Part shown: positions 1 through 32,450 of the stretch, in pieces
How the letters are laid out: every line of letters starts with the position of its first letter
How positions within the stretch are numbered: position 1 is the first letter of the stretch
Assembly (NCBI RefSeq): GCF_057098645.1
Contig: NZ_CM169472.1
DNA: 64,000 bases
Reading direction: 5' to 3' (one strand)
Notes under the pieces: model-generated
Seen by the model: the letters and a program-made list of their open reading frames with translations, nothing else
Told to the model about the DNA's origin: nothing
Databases searched by the model: none
Position numbers and translations under genes: made by a program

Positions 1-2268
1 ATGGCCGTTAAAGCCTCCGGGCGTTTTGTCCCTCCGTCAGCATTTGCCGCAGGCACCGGTGAGACGTTTACCGGTGCTTATGCATGGAACGCGCCACGCG
101 AGGCCGTCGGGCGCGAAAGACCCCTTACACGTGACGAGATGCGTCAGGTGCAAGGTGTTTTATCCACGATTAATCGCCTGCCTTACTTTTTGCGCTCGCT
201 GTTTACTTCACGCTATGACTACATCCGGCGCAATAAAAGCCCGGTGCACGGGTTTTATTTCCTCACATCCACTTTTCAGCGCCGTTTATGGCCGCGTATT
301 GAGCGCGTGAATCAGCGCCATGAAATGAACACCGACGCGTCGTTGCTGTTTCTGGCAGAGCGTGACCATTATGCGCGTCTGCCGGGGATGAATGACAAGG
401 AGCTGAAAAAGTTTGCCGCCCGTATCTCATCGCAGCTTTTCATGATGTATGAGGAACTCTGCGATGCATGGGTTGATGCACATGGCGAGAAAGAATCGCT
501 GTTTACAGATGAGGCGCAGGCGCATCTGTATGGTCATGTTGCTGGCGCTGCACGTGCTTTCAATATTTCCCCTCTCTACTGGAAAAAATACCGTAAAGGA
601 CAGATGACCACGAGGCAGGCATATTCTGCCATTGCCCGTCTGTTTAACGATGAGTGGTGGACTCATCAGCTTAAAGGCCAGCGTATGCGCTGGCATGAGG
701 CGTTACTGATTGCTGTCGGGGAGGTCAATAAAGACCGTTCTCCTTATGCCAGTAAACATGCCATTCGTGATGTGCGTGCACGCCGCCAGGCAAATCTGGA
801 ATTTCTTAAATCGTGTGACCTCGAAAACAGGGAAACCGGCGAGCGCATCGACCTTATCAGTAAGGTGATGGGCAGTATTTCTAATCCTGAAATTCGCCGG
901 ATGGAGCTGATGAACACCATCGCCGGTATTGAGCGTTACGCCGCCGCAGAGGGTGATGTGGGGATGTTTATCACTCTGACCGCGCCGTCAAAGTATCACC
1001 CGACACGTCAGGTCGGAAAAGGCGAAAGTAAAACCGTCCAGCTAAATCACGGCTGGAATGATGAGGCATTTAATCCAAAGGATGCGCAGCGTTATCTCTG
1101 CCGCATCTGGAGCCTGATGCGCACGGCATTCAAGGATAATGATTTACAGGTCTACGGTTTGCGAGTCGTCGAGCCACACCACGACGGAACGCCGCACTGG
1201 CATATGATGCTTTTTTGTAATCCACGCCAGCGTAACCAGATTATCGAAATCATGCGTCGCTATGCGCTCAAAGAGGATGGTGACGAAAGAGGAGCCGCGC
1301 GAAACCGTTTTCAGGCAAAACACCTTAACCGGGGCGGTGCTGCGGGATATATCGCGAAATACATCTCAAAAAACATCGATGGCTATGCACTGGATGGTCA
1401 GCTCGATAACGATACCGGCAGGCCGCTGAAAGACACTGCCGCGGCTGTTACCGCATGGGCGTCAACGTGGCGCATTCCGCAATTTAAAACGGTTGGCCTG
1501 CCGACAATGGGGGCTTACCGTGAACTACGCAAATTGCCTCGCGGCGTCAGCATTGCTGATGAGTTTGACGAACGCGTCGAGGCTGCACGCGCTGCCGCAG
1601 ACAGTGGTGATTTTGCGTTGTATATCAGCGCGCAGGGTGGGGCAAATGTTCCGCGCGATTGTCAGACTGTCAGGGTTGCCCGTAGTCCGTCGGATGAAGT
1701 TAACGAGTACGAGGAAGAAGTCGAGAGAGTGGTCGGCATTTACGCGCCGCATCTCGGCGCGCGTCATATTCATATCACCAGAACGACGGACTGGCGCATT
1801 GTTCCGAAAGTGCCGGTCGTTGAGCCTTTGACTTTAAAAAGCGGCATCGCCGCGCCTCGGAGTCCTGTCAATAACTGTGGAAAGCTCACCGGTGGTGATA
1901 CTTCGTTACCGGCTCCCACACCTTCTGAGCACGCCGCAGCAGTGCTTAATCTGGTTGATGACGGTGTTATCGAATGGAATGACCCGGAGGTCGTGAGGGC
2001 GCTCAGAAGCGCATTAAAACACGACCTGAGAAGACCAAACCGTCAGCAAAGAAACGGAAGCCCGTTAAAACCACATGAAATTGCACCATCGGCCAGACTG
2101 ACCCGGTCTGAACGATTGCAAATCACCCGTATCCGTGTTGACCTTGCTCAGAACGGTATCAGGCCGCAGCGATGGGAGCTTGAGGCGTTGGCGCGCGGGG
2201 CAACAGTAATTTATGAAGGTGAGCGGTTTAGTTATGCTGTAAAAGACGATTGGGTGATGTTTTCTTAA
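1..2268 (+). CDS. A: P2 gpA-like replication initiation endonuclease (rolling-circle nickase); ORF starts at window base 1 so the true 5' end may lie upstream
   Basis: 755-aa ORF with HUH-type motif HWHMMLF and tyrosine pair YIAKYISK; synteny A-cos-Q-P as in P2. Confidence 0.9.
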   Translation: MAVKASGRFVPPSAFAAGTGETFTGAYAWNAPREAVGRERPLTRDEMRQVQGVLSTINRLPYFLRSLFTSRYDYIRRNKSPVHGFYFLTSTFQRRLWPRIERVNQRHEMNTDASLLFLAERDHYARLPGMNDKELKKFAARISSQLFMMYEELCDAWVDAHGEKESLFTDEAQAHLYGHVAGAARAFNISPLYWKKYRKGQMTTRQAYSAIARLFNDEWWTHQLKGQRMRWHEALLIAVGEVNKDRSPYASKHAIRDVRARRQANLEFLKSCDLENRETGERIDLISKVMGSISNPEIRRMELMNTIAGIERYAAAEGDVGMFITLTAPSKYHPTRQVGKGESKTVQLNHGWNDEAFNPKDAQRYLCRIWSLMRTAFKDNDLQVYGLRVVEPHHDGTPHWHMMLFCNPRQRNQIIEIMRRYALKEDGDERGAARNRFQAKHLNRGGAAGYIAKYISKNIDGYALDGQLDNDTGRPLKDTAAAVTAWASTWRIPQFKTVGLPTMGAYRELRKLPRGVSIADEFDERVEAARAAADSGDFALYISAQGGANVPRDCQTVRVARSPSDEVNEYEEEVERVVGIYAPHLGARHIHITRTTDWRIVPKVPVVEPLTLKSGIAAPRSPVNNCGKLTGGDTSLPAPTPSEHAAAVLNLVDDGVIEWNDPEVVRALRSALKHDLRRPNRQQRNGSPLKPHEIAPSARLTRSERLQITRIRVDLAQNGIRPQRWELEALARGATVIYEGERFSYAVKDDWVMFS
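1852..1871 (+). other. candidate phage replication origin (A-protein nick region) inside gene A
   Basis: GCGCCTCGGAGTCCTGTCAA in the 3' third of gene A resembles my recollection of the P2 ori nick region; memory-based. Confidence 0.3.
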
Positions 2269-2351
2269 ACTGATGGCATCATGATACATTAACAAATCTG
2301 AAGCAATACTTTAGTAGTCGTGCATTAATAACTTATAAGGAATTATTATCG

Positions 2352-3674
2352 ATGAGTGCGTTAAGGGATGAAGTATCTATGAAGGTTGCGTTCTCTAATG
2401 GCATGATAAACAAATTATGCAAAAGTTTTTTTTATAGTCATGGTAAGGAGCAGCCTTGTATTCAAGTCGGTAAAGCATTAGAAGATTTTGTTTTTTGGCT
2501 TGCATATAATGATGAGGAGATTGCAAAATGTGCTAGTAGGTTATTAAAAGCATATGGCCCCCAATTAGGTATAAGTAACCTTCATAATGCGAAAAGATTA
2601 TTGTTAGGTTTTTGTTCTGAAGCCTTCAATCGCATTGATGCTGATTTTTTGTCGCTTAATCCTGATAAGATTTGTGTTGATGATATTATAACGCAAGTTC
2701 ATAGAAAAAATCTTAGTGAGATGTTTAAGTGTTATATACTTTCACGAATAAAATCCTGTCCATATATTTATAATCTTGGGTGTGCTGGCTTTGATGGGAA
2801 GCTTGAGCTTAGAGAAAATTTATTTTTATATGGCCCGGGGCTAGGGGTGGAATTACTTTCTGATATTAAAGACAAAACTGACATCAAGGTTCCTGTTGAT
2901 TTTTATGATGATGAATATATGCGGCATAAACCAATTGGGAAATATTTTCGACAGTCAAAATCCTGCTTGGTGGTGGCATATGCTTCATCAGAGGATAAAG
3001 CGGTGAAAATGTTTGATAGTTTGTTTGGAGCTTTATGTCTTGCAGTTGATAATCCTTTTGCGATTAATCGAGTTGCTGTTAATAATCTAGTTGAGTCTTT
3101 TGGTGTCGGGAAATATCATGAAAGTGAGTTTCGGGTGAATATTCCGTCTGTAAATAATTTAAATATAACGGATTCAACCTTGGCGATACTTACAAAAATA
3201 CTTTCATCACCTGATAAAAGGATGTTGTCTGCTCTTTCCTTTATAGCGCACGGGTGGAGAGATGACAAACGTGAAAGGTTTTTGAATCAATTTATAGCAT
3301 TGGATGCTATGTATGGAACCAATAATGGTAATAAAAATTCAATTATTGGCGGTGTTTGCAGAGATGCGGCGAAAATTATTGATATTGATTCAAAAATAGG
3401 AATAATCTATGAGCTTAGGTGTAAGTTTGTTCATGGAGATATTTCATCGTTATCTGATAATGATAGCTATCGAAAGTTTATTGATAGCTATGGCGTGGAC
3501 CCTATTGTTTCTCTTTTTGAAATTCTTAAAGAATGCGTCCTTAATTATAATGGTACTTACAAAACGCCAAAAGATGTTGGAAAGGCAGATAGGTCTATTT
3601 GCGTTCCTGCTGAGTTGCTTCCAGCGGTTGAGAGGATGATAGCGGAATACAGTGGAGTTAAAAAAACAAACTAA
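2352..3674 (+). CDS. hypothetical protein; AT-rich cargo gene at the tin/old position of P2; candidate anti-phage defence protein with C-terminal Rx4H (HEPN-like) motif
   Basis: 440-aa ORF, visibly AT-rich and Lys/Ile/Asn-rich unlike flanking phage genes; motif R356-CKFV-H361-GD; sits between gene A and cos. Confidence 0.75.
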   Translation: MSALRDEVSMKVAFSNGMINKLCKSFFYSHGKEQPCIQVGKALEDFVFWLAYNDEEIAKCASRLLKAYGPQLGISNLHNAKRLLLGFCSEAFNRIDADFLSLNPDKICVDDIITQVHRKNLSEMFKCYILSRIKSCPYIYNLGCAGFDGKLELRENLFLYGPGLGVELLSDIKDKTDIKVPVDFYDDEYMRHKPIGKYFRQSKSCLVVAYASSEDKAVKMFDSLFGALCLAVDNPFAINRVAVNNLVESFGVGKYHESEFRVNIPSVNNLNITDSTLAILTKILSSPDKRMLSALSFIAHGWRDDKRERFLNQFIALDAMYGTNNGNKNSIIGGVCRDAAKIIDIDSKIGIIYELRCKFVHGDISSLSDNDSYRKFIDSYGVDPIVSLFEILKECVLNYNGTYKTPKDVGKADRSICVPAELLPAVERMIAEYSGVKKTN

Positions 3675-3815
3675 AGATGTTCTTTTTAGCCTCGCCTGCA
3701 TTAGGTGCATAAATTTGCATTCATTTTCAAATATATCTTTTGACAGCGAGCACCAGAACAGGCGCTTGCCGGGGGGATGATGCACCTGCATTAAAACCGC
3801 CCCATGAAGCGGGCG

Positions 3816-3834
3816 GGCGAGGCGGGGAAAGCAC
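3816..3834. other. cos: cos site (19-nt cohesive-end sequence of P2-type phages)
   Basis: GGCGAGGCGGGGAAAGCAC matches the remembered P2/186 cohesive-end sequence and lies immediately upstream of Q as expected. Confidence 0.6.
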
Positions 3835-3975
3835 TGCGCGCTGGCGGTGGTGCTGATTTTATTTTTTCAGCGTCTGAGCGCGTCGTGAAGGCGCTTAGTC
3901 TGCCCGTTGAGGCGTTGGTGTGTCTGCGGGGTGTTTTGTGCGGTGGTGAGCGTGTGAGGGCGTGATGACGGGGTG

Positions 3976-3998
3976 TAAAAAAGCCGCCCGCAGGCGGC
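3976..3998 (-). terminator. intrinsic terminator downstream of Q (minus strand)
   Basis: GC hairpin GCCGCC-CGCA-GGCGGC followed by a T-run on the minus strand just past the Q stop. Confidence 0.5.
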
Positions 3999-4003
3999 GA
4001 TGT

Positions 4004-12721: not shown

Positions 12722-13163
12722 GTTTAAGCGTTTTGAAGACCGGCTGACCGGAATGATTGAGTCGCTGTCACCGTCAGGGCGTCGGCGACTGGCGGTAGAT
12801 ATTGCGAAGAAACTGCGCCAGCGCCAGCAGCAGCGAATTAAATTACAAAAAGGCCCGGATGGTACGCCGTATGTACCGAGAAAAAACCAACCAGTGCGAA
12901 ATAAGAAAGGCCGGATAAAGCGGGAAATGTTTGTGAAATTACGCACTAACCGGTTTATGAAAGCAACAGCTAGCGAGAGTGCGGCGGTGGTGGAGTTTAC
13001 TGGTAAGGTTGAGTGTATTGCGAGAGTACATCAATTTGGGTTGGCTGATAAGCCTAGTTACAACAGTAAGGCTGTGGTTTATCCTGTTCGTATACTTATG
13101 GGAATCTCAGAGCGTGATACGAAATTTGTTGAAGAAGTTATTATTCGCTACCTATCTCATTAG
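12714..13163 (+). CDS. S: tail completion protein (P2 gpS-like); 3' two-thirds is AT-rich and looks mosaic
   Basis: 149-aa ORF starting MNEFKRFEDRLTG; synteny; composition shift near 12830. Confidence 0.85.
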   Translation: MNEFKRFEDRLTGMIESLSPSGRRRLAVDIAKKLRQRQQQRIKLQKGPDGTPYVPRKNQPVRNKKGRIKREMFVKLRTNRFMKATASESAAVVEFTGKVECIARVHQFGLADKPSYNSKAVVYPVRILMGISERDTKFVEEVIIRYLSH

Positions 13164-13213
13164 GGACGATGAAAATATAGTTTCATCAGCTATATTCTAG
13201 TATATAAAATACT

Positions 13214-13238
13214 AAGGCTACACTAGCCGTGTAGCCTT
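13214..13238. terminator. bidirectional intrinsic terminator between convergent S and the cargo NTPase gene
   Basis: perfect 10-bp stem AAGGCTACAC / GTGTAGCCTT with 5-nt loop, flanked by A/T-rich runs on both sides. Confidence 0.6.
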
Positions 13239-13263
13239 AGTATATGTTTGGGATATTATATAA

Positions 13264-14508
13264 CTAAATCCAGCGAAGGTAGAATAGTAAGTAAGGATCT
13301 CTGATGTCTAATACATCGCTTTCTTGATCCCACTCGATAATACTGCTATTTGCAGCATCGTTGGCAATAGCAGTTGAGTGCTGACATGCACTGGTTATAC
13401 TAGAACCGCTTGGGCTATCGCCATGACATAACGAGGTCACTCGAGATACTAAGTCAGAATAACGAAATGTCAGCGTCGGAGGATTAGAAGCAATGGCTTT
13501 TAATAAAAAGACATAAACATCGCCTTGCCAGCCATCTTTTGATATATATGATTTTCTATCAGAACCACGCACTTTAGGTCCTTCGCGCATTTTATCCACA
13601 ATCGTGCTGTAATCTGCTGACTGAAGTGTACGTTTGCACACTCTTTGCAATGTGGCAATATCTTTTTGATATTTTATTGAAGTATCAGAAGTCTCTCTGA
13701 CATTCATTTCAAAACAAGAGTTTAAGCATAAATATTGCATTAGTTGTGGTGAGCCTGCGGACTCTTTTACTAACTCACTTATAACTTCATCAGAGGCATC
13801 TATATTGAGTAGTTTGAATCCTTTCTGAGCAATAATTTTTAAGGTTGATTCATCCCAATAATCAAAATCAATATTAAATATCCGGCCTCGTAAGTCAGAG
13901 TTACCCCGAAGAACATCATCAGAATGATATGGCACTGATGCACAAATAAATTTGCAGCCATTAGCTATGGCATCTTTTATTTGTCGTGATAGTTCGGCTT
14001 GAGCTTCTTTAGCAATATAGTGAAAATCATCGATAAAGATAACATAATCTGTGTTTGCGATTTCTCGCTTCATTAGTTGAAAGAGATCTATCGCAAATGA
14101 TTCTGAGGTTTGATCTGCTGTACTATAACCAGCGGATGCAGACCCTTTAAGACTACCTTTTGCTAAAATTACACCAGCTTGGGCAGATAATTCTCCTGTA
14201 CTTGAAAATGATGAGGTGCCAGTTTTACTTTGAACTTGGGTTACTGGTACACCAAGTATGTCGAAAACGCGCTTCCATAAATCATTAGCAGATTGAACCC
14301 CTGCTCCAGTTACTTCGATTAGCCTCTGGGTTCCAAGTACTTTCTTAACAAAGACAGTTTTTCCTGATTTTGATGGGCCAGAGATAGAAATCAGCATGGT
14401 GCCCATCTCAAGTGTATCGATTAACTGTTGCTGTTTAGATACTAGGTGATCCTCAACCAGTGTGTGGTTGGGATAACCGCCTGGGATAAAAACCTCTGTC
14501 GCCTTCAT
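13264..14508 (-). CDS. hypothetical P-loop NTPase; AT-rich cargo gene between S and V; candidate anti-phage defence ATPase
   Basis: 414-aa ORF; Walker A GPSKSGKT (aa 44-51, nt 14356..14379); Walker B YVIFIDD (aa 155-161); Ser/Thr/Gly-rich insert between them; opposite strand and lower GC than the phage backbone. Confidence 0.8.
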   Translation of the reverse strand: MKATEVFIPGGYPNHTLVEDHLVSKQQQLIDTLEMGTMLISISGPSKSGKTVFVKKVLGTQRLIEVTGAGVQSANDLWKRVFDILGVPVTQVQSKTGTSSFSSTGELSAQAGVILAKGSLKGSASAGYSTADQTSESFAIDLFQLMKREIANTDYVIFIDDFHYIAKEAQAELSRQIKDAIANGCKFICASVPYHSDDVLRGNSDLRGRIFNIDFDYWDESTLKIIAQKGFKLLNIDASDEVISELVKESAGSPQLMQYLCLNSCFEMNVRETSDTSIKYQKDIATLQRVCKRTLQSADYSTIVDKMREGPKVRGSDRKSYISKDGWQGDVYVFLLKAIASNPPTLTFRYSDLVSRVTSLCHGDSPSGSSITSACQHSTAIANDAANSSIIEWDQESDVLDIRDPYLLFYLRWI

Positions 14509-18390: not shown

Positions 18391-18945
18391 ATGAACTCAG
18401 TATTCTTTTCACCCGGAAGTAAAAGTTTTTATCTGCAAGAATTGTTTCCAGAATATGAGGATGCGGGAACGCTTCCTGATGATGTTATTGAAATTACCCG
18501 AGAAACATATGAGCAATTTCTTGGGCTGCATCCAGAAGGGAAAGAAATTGGCGCTGACAGTTCAGGACGGCCAATATGGATTAATTCCCCGCCGCCTTCA
18601 AAAGAGGATGAGGTGCTGGCGGCTGAAATGAAAAAAATATCTTTGGTTTCAGAAGTCAATACCTACATCAATACCCATCAGTGGCCTGGCAAAGCTGCTA
18701 TTGGTCGTCTGAAAGGTGACGAGCTGGAACAATATAATTTATGGCTGGATTATCTGGACGCACTGGAACTGGTTGATACCTCCAGTGCTCCAGATTGCGT
18801 ATTCCGCTCTATTCGATCACGGATTGGCATCGAAGTCCGATCAGCGATTCGCATCCATTCGATCAACCGGGAACTTAACTTTTTCTACCGCTTTTTAACG
18901 CGTTTTTTCGCTGCTTTCCACTACCGGGGGATTTTTCCTCAGTGA
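18391..18945 (+). CDS. G: tail fibre assembly protein (gpG-like) with C-terminus replaced by IS-derived sequence
   Basis: 184-aa ORF; native sequence ends at ...DTSSAPD (nt ~18795), then reads into the IS21-family element. Confidence 0.7.
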   Translation: MNSVFFSPGSKSFYLQELFPEYEDAGTLPDDVIEITRETYEQFLGLHPEGKEIGADSSGRPIWINSPPPSKEDEVLAAEMKKISLVSEVNTYINTHQWPGKAAIGRLKGDELEQYNLWLDYLDALELVDTSSAPDCVFRSIRSRIGIEVRSAIRIHSINRELNFFYRFLTRFFAAFHYRGIFPQ

Positions 18946-19650
18946 CTCTCCCTGAAGGACCACTCGGTGTGAGTTATGTACCAGTCTGTCCAGGATGGCA
19001 TCTGCTGTTGTTGGGTTCTCCATCAGACCATGCCATTTATCTACCGGGAACTGGCTTACCACTATCGTGCTGCTTTGTCCGTAACGATCCTCTATGAGCT
19101 CCAGAAGGTCATTACACTGGGCGTTACTTAACTGTTCCAGCCCCAGATCGTCCAGGATTAGAACCTGTATTTTTTGCAACTGTTTCAGATATTTCAGCCA
19201 GCTGCCATCAACACGTCCCTGAGCCAGTTGTTCCAGTAATCGCCCGGTTCTACAGTACCGGACGCTGTGTTTCTGTCGACATGCCTGTTCGCCCAGCGCA
19301 TTGGCTATCCAGCTCTTGCCACATCCTGTCGGACCGGTTATCAGCAGGTTTTTCCTGTGGGTTATGTAGTGGCCGTTCAGCAGTTCTCTCATCTGTTCAG
19401 CCCGCAGACCTCTTGAGGCCGGATAGCGCAGCCCTTCCGGTGTTGCCTGGTATTTCAGGCCGGCATTTTTTCTCAACCGTGCCACACGGCTGTTTTCCCT
19501 GCTCAGAAGCTCGTCATCAACCAGCAGCGTCAGCCTTTCCTCGAACGACAGTTCGTCGTAGGTCTGAGGCGTTTCCCGCTGCCGTATCAGGCTCCCGGCC
19601 ATCGCCGGGAGTTTCAGTTGGGTCAGTTTGTTTAACAGGTTATCACTCAT
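18895..19650 (-). CDS. istB: IS21-family helper ATPase IstB
   Basis: Walker A GPTGCGKS, Walker B VLILDDLG; start trimmed to MSDNLLNKL within ORF-track 18895..19893. Confidence 0.9.
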   Translation of the reverse strand: MSDNLLNKLTQLKLPAMAGSLIRQRETPQTYDELSFEERLTLLVDDELLSRENSRVARLRKNAGLKYQATPEGLRYPASRGLRAEQMRELLNGHYITHRKNLLITGPTGCGKSWIANALGEQACRQKHSVRYCRTGRLLEQLAQGRVDGSWLKYLKQLQKIQVLILDDLGLEQLSNAQCNDLLELIEDRYGQSSTIVVSQFPVDKWHGLMENPTTADAILDRLVHNSHRVVLQGESLRKNPPVVESSEKTR

Positions 19651-19666
19651 ACTGTTGTTCCTTCTG

Positions 19667-21202
19667 TCAGTGGTAGTAGCCCGGACCACGCAGGTTTTCA
19701 TGCTCTGAAGCATATGCCGGATGTTGTTCGCCCTGGCGGGATAATGGAAGCTCCAGGTTCTCCCGATGGTGACGCAGCAGATTGTCGATAAAGCGTCTGT
19801 CAGGGGCGTTATAGTGCAGGGCAACGTAACAGGCCTTTTCCAGCCGTTCCGGGCCGTATTTTTTCTGAAGTGCCAGCAGCCCCAGAACTGCACGATAAGC
19901 CAGTTCCGGATGGGGTTTTGCCTTCAGCATGGATTCAACCACCCGGCCTGTGGACGGGCCCGTACGTTTTCCCTGCTCGATCAGGCGTTCCGGTGTCCAT
20001 GTCCCGTGCTGCCGGTGGCGCTCTGGCATGTGAAGCGGATTGGTTGTGTGTTTATATTCATGTGTGCTGCGCGGATGTTGCGCCACACACTGCCCCTTGT
20101 GCCAGAGCTGTACCACCGACTGCCCCGCCTTCAGTGACAGACGCTGACCGACCAGTTCGTGTGGAACGGAGTACCAGTGACGGGCATATTCAACGTGGTA
20201 GTCAGGGCCAACCTTCACAGCTTTGTATTCCGTGTATTCATAAGGTGCCAGAGGCAGCGGAGAGAGTGCTGGCGCATCCAGTATGCGGAAGCGTTCTGCA
20301 CGGGTTTGATTGCCGTACCCCTTCATTGGCCGGTTATTCATGTCTGTCAGTAACTCCCTAAGGCGCGCATTCAGCGCCCTGAGCGTGTGGAAGGTTTCAT
20401 TACGGATGCGGGCAAGAAGCCATCGTTCAACGATGAGGACGCCGTTTTCTGCTTTTGGTTTATCTTTAGGTTTGCGTGGTCGGGCCGGGATGATAACCGT
20501 GCCATAGTGCTCAGCCAGTGCCTGATAACTGTCGTTGATGACAGGCTCATATCGATCGGCCTTTTTCACTGCGCTTCTGAGGTTATCGGGGATGAGCAGC
20601 TTCGGTACGCCGCCCAGGAAGGTCAGGCAACGGCTGTGGGCATTTAACCATGACATCATGTCCTGACCTTCGCACGCTTCAACGTAGGTATAGTTGGACG
20701 CCCCCATTACGGCCACGAAGATTGCCACGCGGCGTATCTCACCGGTGTCCGGATTAATAACAGGAACCGTAGGACCACAGAAGTCGATAAAAAGCTTTTC
20801 GCCGGCACGATGCTCCTGGCGCATGGAGAGACGTCGCGTTTTTTTCCACTCCCGGTAGCAACGGCAGAAGTGCGAGTATCCCATCGCTTTGTTACCCGCC
20901 TGTGCCTTGTATTCCATCCACAACAGTTGCCGCGTCACACCTGGTTTTCTCATTTCCGTATCGAAGTACAACATGTCAGGCATTACAAGCTCTGATGCAA
21001 AGGTGTCTTTGGGCGGAAAAATGAGTTTCTCCAGCGTGTCATGGGATATATCAGCAGGTAATGGCCATGACAGAGAAGAGGCTTTGAAGCGGGCAAGAAC
21101 CTCAAAAACGGTTGAGGCGCTGATGTGTAACGTCAGTCCGATACAACGGTTAGTCAGCTTCTTGTCGAACTTGAGCTGAAGGATCTTAAAACAGGTTTCC
21201 AT
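19667..21202 (-). CDS. istA: IS21-family transposase IstA
   Basis: N-terminal HTH then DDE-type core; start trimmed to METCFKIL within ORF-track 19667..21313 (track start is a TTG). Confidence 0.88.
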   Translation of the reverse strand: METCFKILQLKFDKKLTNRCIGLTLHISASTVFEVLARFKASSLSWPLPADISHDTLEKLIFPPKDTFASELVMPDMLYFDTEMRKPGVTRQLLWMEYKAQAGNKAMGYSHFCRCYREWKKTRRLSMRQEHRAGEKLFIDFCGPTVPVINPDTGEIRRVAIFVAVMGASNYTYVEACEGQDMMSWLNAHSRCLTFLGGVPKLLIPDNLRSAVKKADRYEPVINDSYQALAEHYGTVIIPARPRKPKDKPKAENGVLIVERWLLARIRNETFHTLRALNARLRELLTDMNNRPMKGYGNQTRAERFRILDAPALSPLPLAPYEYTEYKAVKVGPDYHVEYARHWYSVPHELVGQRLSLKAGQSVVQLWHKGQCVAQHPRSTHEYKHTTNPLHMPERHRQHGTWTPERLIEQGKRTGPSTGRVVESMLKAKPHPELAYRAVLGLLALQKKYGPERLEKACYVALHYNAPDRRFIDNLLRHHRENLELPLSRQGEQHPAYASEHENLRGPGYYH

Positions 21203-21299
21203 AGTGCTCCTGGATTTTCTCTTTCTGGACATTGACGTCTCCACTGGTTTAAACACGGCAATGGAGACTGTGGTGAAAAGAGTTAATTCCCGGAGTGAC

Positions 21300-21434
21300 T
21301 GGCAGGATGCCAATCAATGATCGGAAGCATGCCAAATCGTGATCGATTGTGATGCCAAACTGTGATCGGAGATGGATGCCAAATCATGATCGATTCGAAT
21401 GCCAAACTGCGATCGATTCAGATGCCATTTTGCA
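21300..21434. repeat. tandem ~20-bp terminal repeats of the IS21-family element (transposase binding sites)
   Basis: five to six copies of GATGCCAAA(C/T)NGTGATCGAT-like units; similar units inverted at the other end (18796..18880). Confidence 0.7.
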
Positions 21435-22056: not shown

Positions 22057-22565
22057 GCAGCCCTCACAATATAATTAAAGGCGATGTTACGGGAGCGGGT
22101 TTCAGATGCTGTGCGAACTGAGCGAGATGCGTCGAATGTCCAGTTATAAGCGCCATAACCCTCAATAATTTCGGCTTCCTTTAGACCTGTAGATAATACT
22201 TGCCCATGTTGACTAAATGGCCCTGAACTAAGTACGTCTCTAAAAAGCTGGGTACGCCCAAAAGAACCAACAATATTCTGAATTGCATCATTCTGTGCAG
22301 ATAATAAGTTACGACCAGAGTCAATCCCGCGCCCATCATCCCAGCCACGAATAAATTCACCGCGTAAATCTGGTAATTTTAATGTTGGGTAAGCCTTTGC
22401 CAGATTTGGGTACTTTTCAGAAGAAAATACTGCTCCGTTACATTTTAGCCACCCCATTGGCGGAGTGGCTGAAGGCCACGGAACAGGCACACCAACCGGT
22501 AATGCAGAGCCTTCTCCCAAACCAACGTTTAAGAAAATGCAGAGATTATGTCTAACTGGCATCAT
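22053..22565 (-). CDS. alternative tail fibre C-terminal cassette (promoterless; expressed only after inversion fuses it to H)
   Basis: ORF contains the same NVGLGE junction motif as H at the crossover site; lies between the right crossover site and the alternative assembly gene. Confidence 0.75.
   Translation of the reverse strand: MMPVRHNLCIFLNVGLGEGSALPVGVPVPWPSATPPMGWLKCNGAVFSSEKYPNLAKAYPTLKLPDLRGEFIRGWDDGRGIDSGRNLLSAQNDAIQNIVGSFGRTQLFRDVLSSGPFSQHGQVLSTGLKEAEIIEGYGAYNWTFDASRSVRTASETRSRNIAFNYIVRAA
22512..22537. other. site-specific recombination (crossover) site of a Gin/Hin-family invertase, right copy
   Basis: TTCTCCCAAACC-AA-CGTTTAAGAAAA fits the TTnTCnnAAACC-nn-GGTTTnnGAnAA consensus with one mismatch; adjacent to the invertase gene. 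Confidence 0.65.
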
Positions 22566-22592
22566 CTCCGGTTTTTATTCAGGGGGATGCTC

Positions 22593-23186
22593 ATGCTTAT
22601 TGGCTATGTACGCGTGTCAACAAATGACCAGAACACGGAATTGCAGCGTAATGCGCTGGAGTGCGCAGGATGTGAGCTGATTTTTGAGGACAAAATCAGC
22701 GGCACGAAGTCCGACAGGCCGGGGCTGAAAAAACTGCTCAGAACATTATCGGAAGGTGACACTCTGGTTGTCTGGAAGCTGGACAGGCTGGGGCGTAGTA
22801 TGCGGCATCTGGTCATTCTGGTTGAGGAACTGCGCGAACGCGGCGTTAATTTTCGCAGCCTGACGGATGCTATTGATACCAGCACGCCGATGGGGCGTTT
22901 TTTCTTTCATGTGATGGGTGCCCTGGCTGAAATGGAGCGAGAACTCATTGTCGAGCGGACACGCGCCGGACTGGAAGCGGCCAGAGCCAAAGGTCGTATT
23001 GGTGGCAGACGACCGAAACTCACCGCGAGTGAGTGGGAGCAGGCCGGGCGTTTGCTGGCTGCAGGGGAGTCACGTCAACGCGTGGCACTGATTTTTGATA
23101 TTGGTCTGTCCACGCTCTATAAAAAATTTCCCTCATCAGCGACAAAGAATAAATTGTGTCATCCCTTAGCCAACCGGGACAAATAG
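22593..23186 (+). CDS. serine DNA invertase (Gin/Hin/Cin/Pin family)
   Basis: MLIGYVRVSTNDQ catalytic-serine N-terminus and C-terminal HTH; start trimmed from ORF-track 22548. Confidence 0.9.
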   Translation: MLIGYVRVSTNDQNTELQRNALECAGCELIFEDKISGTKSDRPGLKKLLRTLSEGDTLVVWKLDRLGRSMRHLVILVEELRERGVNFRSLTDAIDTSTPMGRFFFHVMGALAEMERELIVERTRAGLEAARAKGRIGGRRPKLTASEWEQAGRLLAAGESRQRVALIFDIGLSTLYKKFPSSATKNKLCHPLANRDK

Positions 23187-27905: not shown

Positions 27906-28385
27906 ATGATGCTCGCGTTAGGTATGTTTGTTTTTATGCGCCAGACGCTGCCACACCAGACCATGCAGCGTGAATCAGATTATCGCTGGCCGTCAAATTC
28001 CCGTATCGGTAAACGGGATGCCTTTCAGTTTCTCGGTGTGGGTGAGGAAAACATTACGCTTGCCGGTGTGCTTTATCCCGAACTGACCGGCGGCAAGCTG
28101 ACGATGACCACGCTCAGGCTGATGGCAGAGGAAGGTCGGGCGTGGCCGTTGCTGGATGGCACCGGCATGATTTACGGCATGTATGTCATCAGCAGGGTGA
28201 GTGAAACAGGGAGTATTTTCTTTGCAGACGGCACACCCCGAAAAATTGATTTTACGCTGTCGCTCACCCGCGTGGATGAATCACTGGCCGCGCTTTATGG
28301 CGATATCGGTAAACAGGCGGAATCGCTCATCGGTAAGGCTGGCAGTATGGCGACTAAATTCACGGGGATGACGGGGGCGGGATAA
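27906..28385 (+). CDS. U: tail protein (P2 gpU-like)
   Basis: 159-aa ORF; synteny. Confidence 0.9.
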   Translation: MMLALGMFVFMRQTLPHQTMQRESDYRWPSNSRIGKRDAFQFLGVGEENITLAGVLYPELTGGKLTMTTLRLMAEEGRAWPLLDGTGMIYGMYVISRVSETGSIFFADGTPRKIDFTLSLTRVDESLAALYGDIGKQAESLIGKAGSMATKFTGMTGAG

Positions 28386-29548
28386 TGCTGGATGCGCTGA
28401 CATTTGATGCAGGCAGTACGCTGACGCCGGATTACATGCTGATGCTCGACAGCAGGGATATTACCGGCAATATCAGCGACCGTCTGATGAGCATGACCCT
28501 GACGGATAACCGGGGCTTTGAGGCTGACCAGCTTGATATTGAACTGAACGACGCCGACGGGCAGGTAGGGCTGCCGGTTCGTGGCGCTGTCCTGACGGTG
28601 TATATCGGCTGGAAAGGTTTTGCCCTGGTATGCAAAGGGAAATTTACCGTTGATGAGGTTGAACACCGGGGCGCGCCGGATGTGGTCACCATCCGCGCCC
28701 GGAGTGCAGATTTTCGCGGGACGCTCAATTCCCGCCGGGAAGGCTCCTGGCATGACACCACGCTCGGTGCGATTGTTGAGGCGATTGCCTCCCGTAACAG
28801 GCTGGAAGCCAGTGTCGCTCCGTCACTGGCCGGAATTAAAATCCCGCACATCGATCAGTCGCAGGAGTCTGATGCGAAATTCCTGACCCGTCTAGCAGAA
28901 CGCAACGGCGGTGAGGTGTCGGTAAAAATGGGAAAACTGTTGTTTCTCAAAGCGGGGCAGGGGGTGACGGCCAGCGGTAAAAAAATCCCGCAGATTACCA
29001 TCACCCGCAGCGACGGCGACCGTCATCATTTTGCGATTGCTGACCGTGGAGCCTACACCGGCGTAACGGCAAAGTGGTTACACACCAAAGACCCGAAGCC
29101 ACAAAAGCAGAAGGTAAAACTGAAACGCAAAAAGAAAGAGAAACACCTGCGCGCACTGGAGCACCCGAAAGCGAAACCGGTCACGCAGAAGAAAGCGCCA
29201 AAAGTACCGGAAGCGCGCGAAGGTGAATACATGGCCGGTGAGGCTGACAATGTTTTTGCCCTGACCACGGTATATGCCACGAAAGCGCAGGCCATGCGCG
29301 CCGCTCAGGCGAAGTGGGACAAACTGCAACGGGGCGTCGCGGAGTTCTCCATCAGTCTGGCTACCGGTCGGGCAGATATTTACACGGAAACGCCGGTCAA
29401 AGTGTCAGGCTTTAAGCGCGTCATAGACGAGCAGGACTGGACAATCACTAAGGTGACACACTTTCTGAATAATAGCGGCTTCACGACGTCCTTGGAGCTT
29501 GAGGTCAGGCTTTCTGATGTGGAGTACGAAACAGAAGATGATGAGTGA
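28385..29548 (+). CDS. D: tail protein (P2 gpD-like, late control gene D)
   Basis: 387-aa ORF; synteny. Confidence 0.92.
   Translation: MLDALTFDAGSTLTPDYMLMLDSRDITGNISDRLMSMTLTDNRGFEADQLDIELNDADGQVGLPVRGAVLTVYIGWKGFALVCKGKFTVDEVEHRGAPDVVTIRARSADFRGTLNSRREGSWHDTTLGAIVEAIASRNRLEASVAPSLAGIKIPHIDQSQESDAKFLTRLAERNGGEVSVKMGKLLFLKAGQGVTASGKKIPQITITRSDGDRHHFAIADRGAYTGVTAKWLHTKDPKPQKQKVKLKRKKKEKHLRALEHPKAKPVTQKKAPKVPEAREGEYMAGEADNVFALTTVYATKAQAMRAAQAKWDKLQRGVAEFSISLATGRADIYTETPVKVSGFKRVIDEQDWTITKVTHFLNNSGFTTSLELEVRLSDVEYETEDDE

Positions 29549-30167: not shown

Positions 30168-32450
<2,283 letters not shown>

What the first reader, a model, noticed from the sequence alone, without database searches (positions are those of the whole stretch)
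1852..1871. Possible replication origin inside gene A
GCGCCTCGGAGTCCTGTCAA in the 3' third of gene A resembles my recollection of the P2 ori nick region. If correct, the prophage keeps a cis-acting origin together with an intact A gene.
Basis: established knowledge. Interest (0 to 1): 0.2.

Follow-up and report, generated by a model that had tools for sequence, protein, structure and literature searches.

The report
P2 prophage replication origin, confirmed
The 20-base string is the known nick site of the rolling-circle replication origin of phage P2, inside an intact copy of the initiator gene A of an ordinary P2-like prophage; it is correct but already known.

Summary
The observation and the interpretation both hold. 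GCGCCTCGGAGTCCTGTCAA is at window 1852-1871 (+) and occurs once in the window. It is base-for-base the site that the P2 GenBank record annotates as "nick site at ori" (29892 = window 1859). Phage fiAA91-ss annotates the same 21 bases as rep_origin.

It lies in codons 618-624 of a 755-aa gene A (1-2268). That protein is 97% identical to P2 gpA and keeps the HUH histidines and Tyr450/Tyr454.

Identity with P2 is expected by descent alone. Distant homologs give the real evidence of function. In 11 A/Rep genes, mostly 29-38% identical as protein to the window's A, 1852-1878 is the most nucleotide-conserved stretch of the gene. This is sharpest at third codon positions.

The conserved element is larger than reported. 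It is a core, CCTYG|GAnTnnTGnCAATAACTGT (1855-1878), preceded by a short GC-rich hairpin (1841-1853). The hairpin's sequence varies between phages while its pairing is kept.

P2-like prophages are very common in E. coli, so this is textbook biology: already known, low interest. I could not establish whether the hairpin has been described before.

The parts
1..2268 (+). Gene A: the rolling-circle replication initiator, an HUH endonuclease of the P2 gpA family, 755 aa.
   Evidence: ORF. 96.8% DNA and 97% protein identity to P2 A. Pfam PF05840 Phage_GPA at 414.6 bits, residues 133-462.
1195..1203 (+). Codons H399-W400-H401: the HUH metal-binding motif of the initiator.
   Evidence: Invariant against P2 gpA. 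The codons CAC TGG CAT were read. This stretch is the second most conserved 27-nt window of the gene among the 11 homologs (1174-1200).
1348..1362 (+). Codons Y450-I-A-K-Y454: the two active-site tyrosines.
   Evidence: Invariant against P2 gpA. A YxxxY motif is found in all 15 homologs examined. PMC3986222 cites Odegrip & Haggard-Ljungquist 2001 for the two tyrosines being part of the P2 A active site.
1841..1853 (+). Short GC-rich hairpin, GCGGC-ATC-GCCGC, directly 5' of the nick core.
   Evidence: It is the centroid of the DNA fold. Among 48 unique flanks, 79% have a perfect stem of at least 5 bp at this place, against 2-9% in four controls. There are 22 distinct stem sequences. On the structure-aware alignment 93% of cells pair and all 6 pairs show changes on both sides.
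1852..1871 (+).
   Evidence: Identical to P2 and equal to the fiAA91-ss rep_origin feature less its last base.
1855..1878 (+). Conserved nick core, CCTCGGAGTCCTGTCAATAACTGT. Family consensus: CCTYGGAnTnnTGnCAATAACTGT.
   Evidence: 1852-1878 is the most nucleotide-conserved 27-nt stretch of gene A among 11 diverged homologs, at 0.886 against a gene mean of 0.54. Third codon positions score 0.949 against 0.452 (sd 0.108). It is the only match in the window.
1859..1860 (+). Inferred nick position, between G1859 and G1860 (CCTCG|GAG), on the coding (non-template) strand of gene A.
   Evidence: The P2 record marks the first G (29892 = 1859). The phage 186 record marks the second G of TCTCGGAG (28576). 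The phiX174 record marks the base 3' of its nick. Together these fit a cut between the two Gs. Neither the exact bond nor the strand was tested here.

Best explanation
Window 1841-1878 is the rolling-circle origin (ori) of a P2-like (Peduovirus) prophage, embedded in the coding sequence of its own initiator gene A.

Mechanism. This comes from established knowledge of P2 and of HUH/two-tyrosine initiators such as phiX174 gpA; it was not tested here. gpA cuts one strand at CCTCG|GAG (1859/1860). One active-site tyrosine becomes covalently joined to the 5' end. The free 3'-OH primes leading-strand synthesis by host enzymes. After one round, the second tyrosine cuts the regenerated site and the first strand is resealed.

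Shown here:
- The site is identical to the annotated P2 nick site.
- The initiator ORF is intact and keeps its catalytic residues.
- The site is under nucleotide-level selection across the family.
- A hairpin with covarying arms sits 5-8 nt upstream of the cut.

Inferred:
- The site is active in this prophage.
- The cut is on the + strand.
- The hairpin helps gpA recognise single-stranded ori DNA, in the way relaxases read a hairpin next to nic.
For: Identity with annotated sites:
- P2 rep_origin 29892 corresponds to window 1859 and the 20-mer is identical.
- The fiAA91-ss rep_origin corresponds to 1852-1872.
- PMC3986222 states that the P2 ori lies in gene A, citing Liu & Haggard-Ljungquist 1994, and that Vibrio phage PV94 has a near-identical ori.

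Initiator: 97% identical to P2 gpA, with HUH and Y450/Y454 kept; Phage_GPA at 414.6 bits.

DNA-level selection:
- In a protein-guided codon alignment of 11 homologs (10 besides the window: one 58.5% identical as protein to the window's A, the others 29-38%, over matches covering 40-97% of it), 1852-1878 ranks first of all 27-nt windows.
- The 9-codon window at the site (1855-1881) has third-position conservation of 0.949, against a gene mean of 0.452 (sd 0.108) and 0.717 for the runner-up.
- Encoded residues change (R to W, S to T, P to R/S/C, V to G/D) while the bases stay the same.
- In fs2 the motif is in another reading frame, and in pre-CTX it lies just after the stop codon.

Hairpin.

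Uniqueness: one site per window.
Against: - No experiment is available here. The primary P2 ori papers (1993-2001) are not in the held library, so the nick position rests on database annotations and a secondary citation.
- The early operon upstream of A lies outside the window. It was seen only in a 99.2%-identical relative.
- An IS21 element sits in the tail-fibre region, so the prophage may not be fully viable. This does not bear on ori itself.
- The window's hairpin alone is thermodynamically unremarkable: -6 kcal/mol, z = -0.22.
Confidence: 0.93

Rival explanations
1. The 20-mer is only an inherited piece of coding sequence in a decaying prophage. It matches P2 because the whole gene is about 97% identical, and it is not used as an origin any more.
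For: An unchanged 20-mer is expected about half the time at 96.8% identity. An IS21 element has inserted into the tail-fibre region. P2-type prophages are very common passengers: 2237 of 5426 complete E. coli genomes match window 1-4000.
Against: Gene A is a full-length ORF with every catalytic residue kept. The cos 19-mer is intact at 3816-3834. The late-gene ORFs run on through gene D, matching the annotated order in the close relative. Phage S164 matches all 755 residues of this A, including its variant C-terminus, at 98%. Nothing in the ori region differs from the P2 sequence.
Confidence: 0.05
2. The deep conservation reflects a constraint on the protein (a P-R/W-S/T-x-V-N-N-C peptide) or on the mRNA (a stem-loop that regulates translation of A), not a DNA site.
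For: The motif keeps the same reading frame in 14 of the 15 homologs examined, and N-N-C is nearly invariant as peptide. An RNA copy of the hairpin would also fold.
Against: - Third codon positions are the most conserved in the gene, 0.949 against 0.452, which a peptide constraint does not predict.
- Several residues are replaced radically by single-base changes that keep the DNA consensus.
- In fs2 the same bases lie in another frame, and in pre-CTX they lie after the stop codon.
- Resampling synonymous codons while keeping each peptide gives stems of at least 5 bp in only 9.2% of cases, against 79% observed.
- The P2 record annotates the cut at this position.
Confidence: 0.02

Closest known systems
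Bacteriophage P2 ori (AF063097, rep_origin 29892, 'nick site at ori', inside gene A)
   Same: The 20-mer is identical, and so is everything from the hairpin to 100 nt downstream. The codon position and the initiator family are the same, with 97% protein identity.
   Different: Three substitutions lie 30-55 nt upstream of the site. The last ~20 codons of A differ, and P2's orf91/tin/old are replaced by one 440-aa gene.
Coliphage 186 ori (NC_001317, rep_origin 28576, inside gene A)
   Same: The same architecture: a hairpin (GGGCGC-TTCT-GCGCCC), then TCTCG|GAGTTCTGTCAATAACTGT on the coding strand, 169 codons after the catalytic tyrosines.
   Different: The stem sequence differs, with a 4-nt loop, and the core has TCT for CCT and GAGTTC for GAGTCC. 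186-type A proteins are about 37% identical to this one (measured on the 186-like phage vB_EcoM-613R3).
phiX174 gene A protein and its origin (NC_001422, rep_origin 4306)
   Same: The origin lies inside the initiator's own gene, on the coding strand. From established knowledge, the initiator is a two-tyrosine HUH enzyme that acts in cis. The sequences share CTTG| before the cut and AATAAC after it.
   Different: AATAAC begins 6 nt after the cut in phiX174 and 11 nt after it in the P2 family. I saw no adjacent hairpin in the phiX174 sequence. That origin lies near codon 109, upstream of the catalytic part, whereas the P2-family site lies more than 150 codons downstream of the tyrosines. The resemblance was not tested for significance.
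Conjugative relaxase oriT/nic sites (e.g. TrwC of R388, TraI of F), from established knowledge
   Same: An HUH enzyme and a hairpin a few nucleotides 5' of the cut. Here the cut is 5-8 nt from the base of the stem.
   Different: This is not a relaxase and there is no transfer function. The stem is only 5-7 bp. Binding of the hairpin by gpA is inferred, not shown. This is a 'works like' comparison only.

Membership tests
P2-type rolling-circle origin (ori inside gene A) | Sequence of the experimentally mapped P2 nick region | tested here: met
   20 of 20 bases identical to AF063097 around rep_origin 29892. Matches the fiAA91-ss rep_origin feature.
P2-type rolling-circle origin (ori inside gene A) | Location in the 3' part of a gene A homolog, on its coding strand | tested here: met
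   The cut falls in codon 620 of 755, on the + strand like the gene. The position is homologous in 12 P2-like homologs, 167-236 codons after the catalytic tyrosines.
P2-type rolling-circle origin (ori inside gene A) | Cognate initiator intact, with the HUH motif and two active-site tyrosines | tested here: met
   H399-W-H401 and Y450/Y454 are invariant against P2 gpA, and the ORF is uninterrupted.
P2-type rolling-circle origin (ori inside gene A) | Site-specific single-strand cleavage by gpA with covalent attachment to the 5' end | not testable with these tools
   Needs a nicking assay. The primary papers are not in the held library.
P2-type rolling-circle origin (ori inside gene A) | Cis-action of A on the genome that encodes it | not testable with these tools
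   This is a genetic property of P2, taken from established knowledge. Nothing in the sequence tests it.
Phage_GPA replication initiators (Pfam PF05840) | Score above the Pfam gathering threshold | tested here: met
   414.6 bits against a cut-off of 31.4, E = 3.1e-124, residues 133-462 covering profile positions 1-321 of 321.
Relaxase-type nic site (hairpin plus nic) | Conserved inverted repeat immediately 5' of the cut | tested here: met
   79% of 48 unique flanks have a perfect stem of at least 5 bp, against 2-9% in controls. On the structure-aware alignment 93% of cells pair, all 6 pairs change on both sides, and 0 of 500 shuffles reach the observed covariation score.
Relaxase-type nic site (hairpin plus nic) | Enzyme of a relaxase (MOB) family, and DNA transfer | tested here: not met
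   The protein matches Phage_GPA and REP_ORF2-G2P only. The locus is a phage replication module. The relaxase comparison is therefore an analogy, not membership.

The most novel reading that the evidence does not exclude
The P2-family origin may be a composite element: a covarying hairpin plus a 24-nt core. This element would be conserved across the whole Phage_GPA family, including the corticovirus PM2 and the vibrio filamentous phages fs2 and pre-CTX. In 14 of the 15 homologs examined it lies inside the initiator gene, at least 156 codons downstream of the catalytic tyrosines, and always on the coding (non-template) strand. In pre-CTX it lies just after the stop codon.

If gpA needs single-stranded DNA, this layout would let RNA polymerase transcribing gene A expose the nick site on the non-template strand just as the nascent, already folded catalytic domain emerges. 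That would be a concrete mechanism for the long-known cis-action of A. I do not know whether the hairpin or this idea has been published, because the primary P2 ori papers are not held.
Probability: 0.25. Interest if true: 0.45.

Novelty: already known. Interest (0 to 1): 0.12.

Why it matters
For this window it matters little. It confirms that the prophage carries the complete replication module of a standard P2-type phage: an intact initiator gene with its internal origin. It also gives the annotation an exact origin coordinate, a cut at 1859/1860.

The comparative by-products are of modest use:
- A 24-nt consensus plus a hairpin locates the origin in any gpA-family replicon. It found one site per genome in every phage tested.
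- It suggests that the 'cleavage site' annotated in the PM2 record may not be the best candidate.
- The covarying hairpin offers a testable recognition element for an initiator whose DNA-binding mode and cis-action remain structurally unexplained.

Tried and rejected
Literature:
- The primary papers on the P2 nick site could not be read. DOI 10.1093/nar/22.24.5204 and PMC332061 are not held.
- Full-text searches for the sequence itself or for 'P2 ori' returned only unrelated papers, apart from PMC3986222.
- The rolling-circle review PMC5714925 does not mention P2.

Folding and alignment tests that did not work:
- A single-sequence DNA fold of 1830-1885 finds the hairpin, but its energy is no better than shuffles (z = -0.22). 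Thermodynamics of one sequence is therefore uninformative.
- An ungapped MAFFT alignment of 37 origins, scored with one fixed pairing register, gave only 65% paired cells, and RNAalifold predicted no pairs on it. The cause is that loop length (3-7 nt) and stem offset differ between clades. A covariance-model alignment resolved this. That alignment is fitted to the model, so it leans towards the structure.

Explanation rejected: the hairpin as a by-product of Gly/Ala codons (GGC and GCC are reverse complements). Synonymous-codon resampling that keeps each peptide gives 9.2% against 79% observed.

No hit: NCBIfam returned nothing for gene A.

Full report
**1. The observation**

GCGCCTCGGAGTCCTGTCAA is at window 1852-1871 on the + strand. 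With up to three mismatches allowed it is the only match in the 64 kb, and none of 100 shuffles produced one. It lies in ORF 1-2268 (755 aa), at codons 618-624 (A-P-R-S-P-V-N). That is 82% of the way along the gene, so 'the 3' third' is correct.

**2. What the gene is**

- Megablast of 1-2268 against 50,697 phage records finds 86 records. Of these, 77 are 95-99% identical, and all of them are P2-type (Peduovirus) phages of Escherichia, Yersinia and Salmonella. P2 itself (AF063097) is 96.8% identical over 1-2216.
- The protein is 97% identical to P2 gpA. The HUH histidines (H399-W-H401, nt 1195-1203) and the tyrosine pair Y450/Y454 (nt 1348-1362) are unchanged. Only the last ~20 residues differ.
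- Pfam gives Phage_GPA at 414.6 bits.
- Escherichia phage S164 matches all 755 residues, including the variant C-terminus, at 98%.

**3. Is the 20-mer the P2 origin?**

Yes.

- The P2 record annotates rep_origin 29892, 'nick site at ori', inside CDS A. The two sequences align without gaps, 29892 falls on window 1859, and the 20-mer is identical.
- Phage fiAA91-ss (NC_022750) annotates rep_origin 30355-30375, 'located within gene A'. This corresponds to window 1852-1872.
- Phage 186 (NC_001317) annotates rep_origin 28576, 'located by similarity with P2; consistent with electron microscopy mapping', on the second G of TCTCGGAG.
- P2 marks the first G, 186 marks the second, and the phiX174 record marks the base 3' of its known cut. 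All three fit a cut between the two Gs, that is CCTCG|GAG, window 1859/1860.
- PMC3986222 states that the P2 ori lies in gene A, citing Liu & Haggard-Ljungquist 1994, and that Vibrio phage PV94 has a nearly identical ori.
- I could not read the primary papers.

**4. Is it more than inheritance?**

At 96.8% identity an unchanged 20-mer is expected about half the time, so the match with P2 shows homology only. I therefore took distant homologs, chosen by protein similarity alone, before looking at the site (loci).

- The set is YenM_56.17, Kp4860-2, vB_EcoM-613R3 (186-like), SI7, Cartapus, P88, HP2, PV94, phiO18P and PK23. One is 58.5% identical as protein to the window's A and the others are 29-38%.
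- Every one has the site as its best match to the 20-mer, at the homologous place.
- In a protein-guided codon alignment of 11 genes, 1852-1878 is the most nucleotide-conserved 27-nt stretch of the whole gene. Its mean majority fraction is 0.886, against 0.54 (sd 0.135) for the gene. That is ahead of the HUH region (0.865) and the tyrosine region (0.825).
- At third codon positions the window at the site (1855-1881) scores 0.949, against a mean of 0.452 (sd 0.108). The runner-up scores 0.717.
- The surrounding protein is poorly conserved and rich in insertions and deletions. The encoded residues change (R to W, S to T, P to R/S/C, V to G/D) while the bases are kept.
- In the filamentous phage fs2 the same bases lie in a different reading frame. 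In pre-CTX they lie just after the stop codon of the RstA-like gene.

This is the signature of a DNA site laid over a coding sequence. The conserved core is CCTYGGAnTnnTGnCAATAACTGT, window 1855-1878.

**5. A hairpin next to the cut**

Immediately 5' of the core, almost every homolog has a short GC-rich inverted repeat. Its sequence differs from phage to phage:

| Phage | Hairpin |
|---|---|
| window / P2 | GCGGC-ATC-GCCGC (1841-1853) |
| YenM_56.17 | GCGCC-TCT-GGCGC |
| Kp4860-2 | GGCCGC-GCA-GCGGCC |
| 613R3 | GACGGC-AAA-GCCGTC |
| HP2 | GCGCAC-GCA-GTGCGC |
| 186 | GGGCGC-TTCT-GCGCCC |

- A scan of IMG/VR with the core pattern, which does not include the hairpin, returned 120 loci. With the phage-record loci these gave 52 unique 26-nt upstream flanks, 22 distinct stems and 39 distinct upstream peptides.
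- Among the 48 unique flanks with enough upstream sequence for the controls, 79% have a perfect stem of at least 5 bp with a loop of 3-7 nt, ending 0-3 nt before CCT.
- The controls give far less:

| Control | Stems of at least 5 bp |
|---|---|
| Dinucleotide shuffles of the whole flank | 4.6% |
| Dinucleotide shuffles of the GC-rich 16 nt only | 9.3% |
| All other positions in the same genes | 2.2% |
| GC-matched positions | 5.7% |
| Synonymous-codon resampling, peptide kept | 9.2% |

- An ungapped alignment mixes pairing registers and gives a weak result: 65% paired and no RNAalifold prediction.
- A covariance model was built from 11 sequences and used to align 56 origins. On that alignment 93% of cells pair and all six pairs have changes on both sides (41 cells). 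The covariation score is 0.321, against 0.070 in shuffles (0 of 500 reach it) and at most 0.03 when the partners are slid. This alignment is fitted to the model and so leans towards the structure.
- The window's hairpin alone is not thermodynamically unusual.
- The cut lies 5-8 nt 3' of the stem. This geometry recalls relaxase nic sites. That is an analogy drawn from general knowledge, not a claim of membership.

**6. Reach of the motif**

- The 24-nt consensus matches once in the corticovirus PM2 (3507-3530, 4 mismatches, 3' part of gene XII).
- It matches once in fs2 (2360, 4 mismatches).
- It matches once in pre-CTX (3160, 3 mismatches).
- The next-best matches in those genomes have 9-10 mismatches. 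The covariance model finds the same three sites at E = 5e-5 to 4e-4.
- In the 12 P2-like genes and PM2 the cut lies 156-236 codons after the catalytic YxxxY (250 in fs2), and in all 15 homologs it is on the coding strand.

**7. Context**

- The window holds a single such site.
- Downstream lie a 440-aa low-GC gene (2352-3674), the P2 cos 19-mer at 3816-3834, portal Q and terminase P on the minus strand, and the late genes up to D (28385-29548). The host gene pflB follows at 30168-32450.
- The window starts exactly at the ATG of A. Several RefSeq E. coli chromosomes also start at that base. This looks like assembler rotation to a 'replication initiator' gene rather than biology.
- In the closest of these records (NZ_CP087564, 99.2% identical), int, C, cox, B and orf80-83 lie at the end of the circular record, and the prophage sits between pflA and pflB. 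For the window's own genome these genes cannot be seen.
- Of 5426 complete E. coli genomes, 2237 match window 1-4000, so the element is commonplace.

**8. Verdict**

The feature is the textbook P2 origin in an intact gene A, so it is already known and of low interest. The hairpin and the family-wide core are useful refinements, but I could not establish whether they are new.

Noticed in passing
window 2352-3674 (+): A 440-aa gene in a low-GC stretch (GC 0.385 for window 2001-3000) sits between gene A and cos, where P2 carries orf91/tin/old. RefSeq names its homolog in the 99.2%-identical relative 'HEPN domain-containing protein'. It has no hit in Pfam, PADLOC or NCBIfam. It is uncharacterised cargo of the P2 variable region and a candidate anti-phage gene. 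Homology with P2 DNA ends at about 2216-2222, inside the 3' end of A.
   Followed up: partly
window 13264-14508 (-): A 414-aa gene in a low-GC stretch (GC 0.378 for window 13001-14000) lies among the late genes and is absent from the corresponding interval of the close relative NZ_CP087564. It matches the PADLOC defence candidate PDC-S59 (E = 2.8e-31) and weakly matches AAA_22.
   Followed up: partly
window 18895-21313 (-), with 22548-23186 (+): An IS21-family element (IstA-like 19667-21313, IstB 18895-19893) is inserted in the tail-fibre region. Nearby are inverted tail-fibre assembly and collar-domain ORFs and a resolvase-type invertase. The G-like ORF 18391-18945 overlaps the IS end, so the prophage may have a tail-fibre defect.
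   Followed up: no
window 1 (record start): The window begins exactly at the ATG of gene A. Several RefSeq E. coli chromosomes (e.g. NZ_CP087564, NZ_CP135653) also begin at this base. Assembly software has probably rotated the chromosome to a 'replication initiator' gene and picked phage gpA instead of dnaA.
   Followed up: partly
L136 (PM2, NC_000867) 3507-3530 versus the annotated 2253/2254: The PM2 record annotates a 'cleavage site' at 2253/2254 in gene XII. The best match to the P2-family nick core (4 of 24 mismatches, next best 9) is at 3507-3530, in the 3' part of the gene and 156 codons after the tyrosines, at the position homologous to the P2 ori.
   Followed up: partly
L137 (pre-CTX) 3160-3183; L138 (fs2) 2360-2383: The P2-type nick core is also present in vibrio filamentous phages. 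In pre-CTX it starts directly after the stop codon of the RstA-like gene. In fs2 it lies in the 3' end of orf716 in a different reading frame.
   Followed up: partly
L139 (phiX174) 400-417 versus window 1855-1875: The phiX174 origin, CAACTTG|ATATTAATAAC, shares CTTG before the cut and AATAAC after it with the P2-family CCTYG|GAGTYCTGTCAATAAC. The spacing differs by 5 nt. This may be chance and was not tested.
   Followed up: no
window 3816-3834 (+): The P2 cohesive-end 19-mer, GGCGAGGCGGGGAAAGCAC, is present unchanged between the 440-aa gene and portal gene Q.
   Followed up: yes
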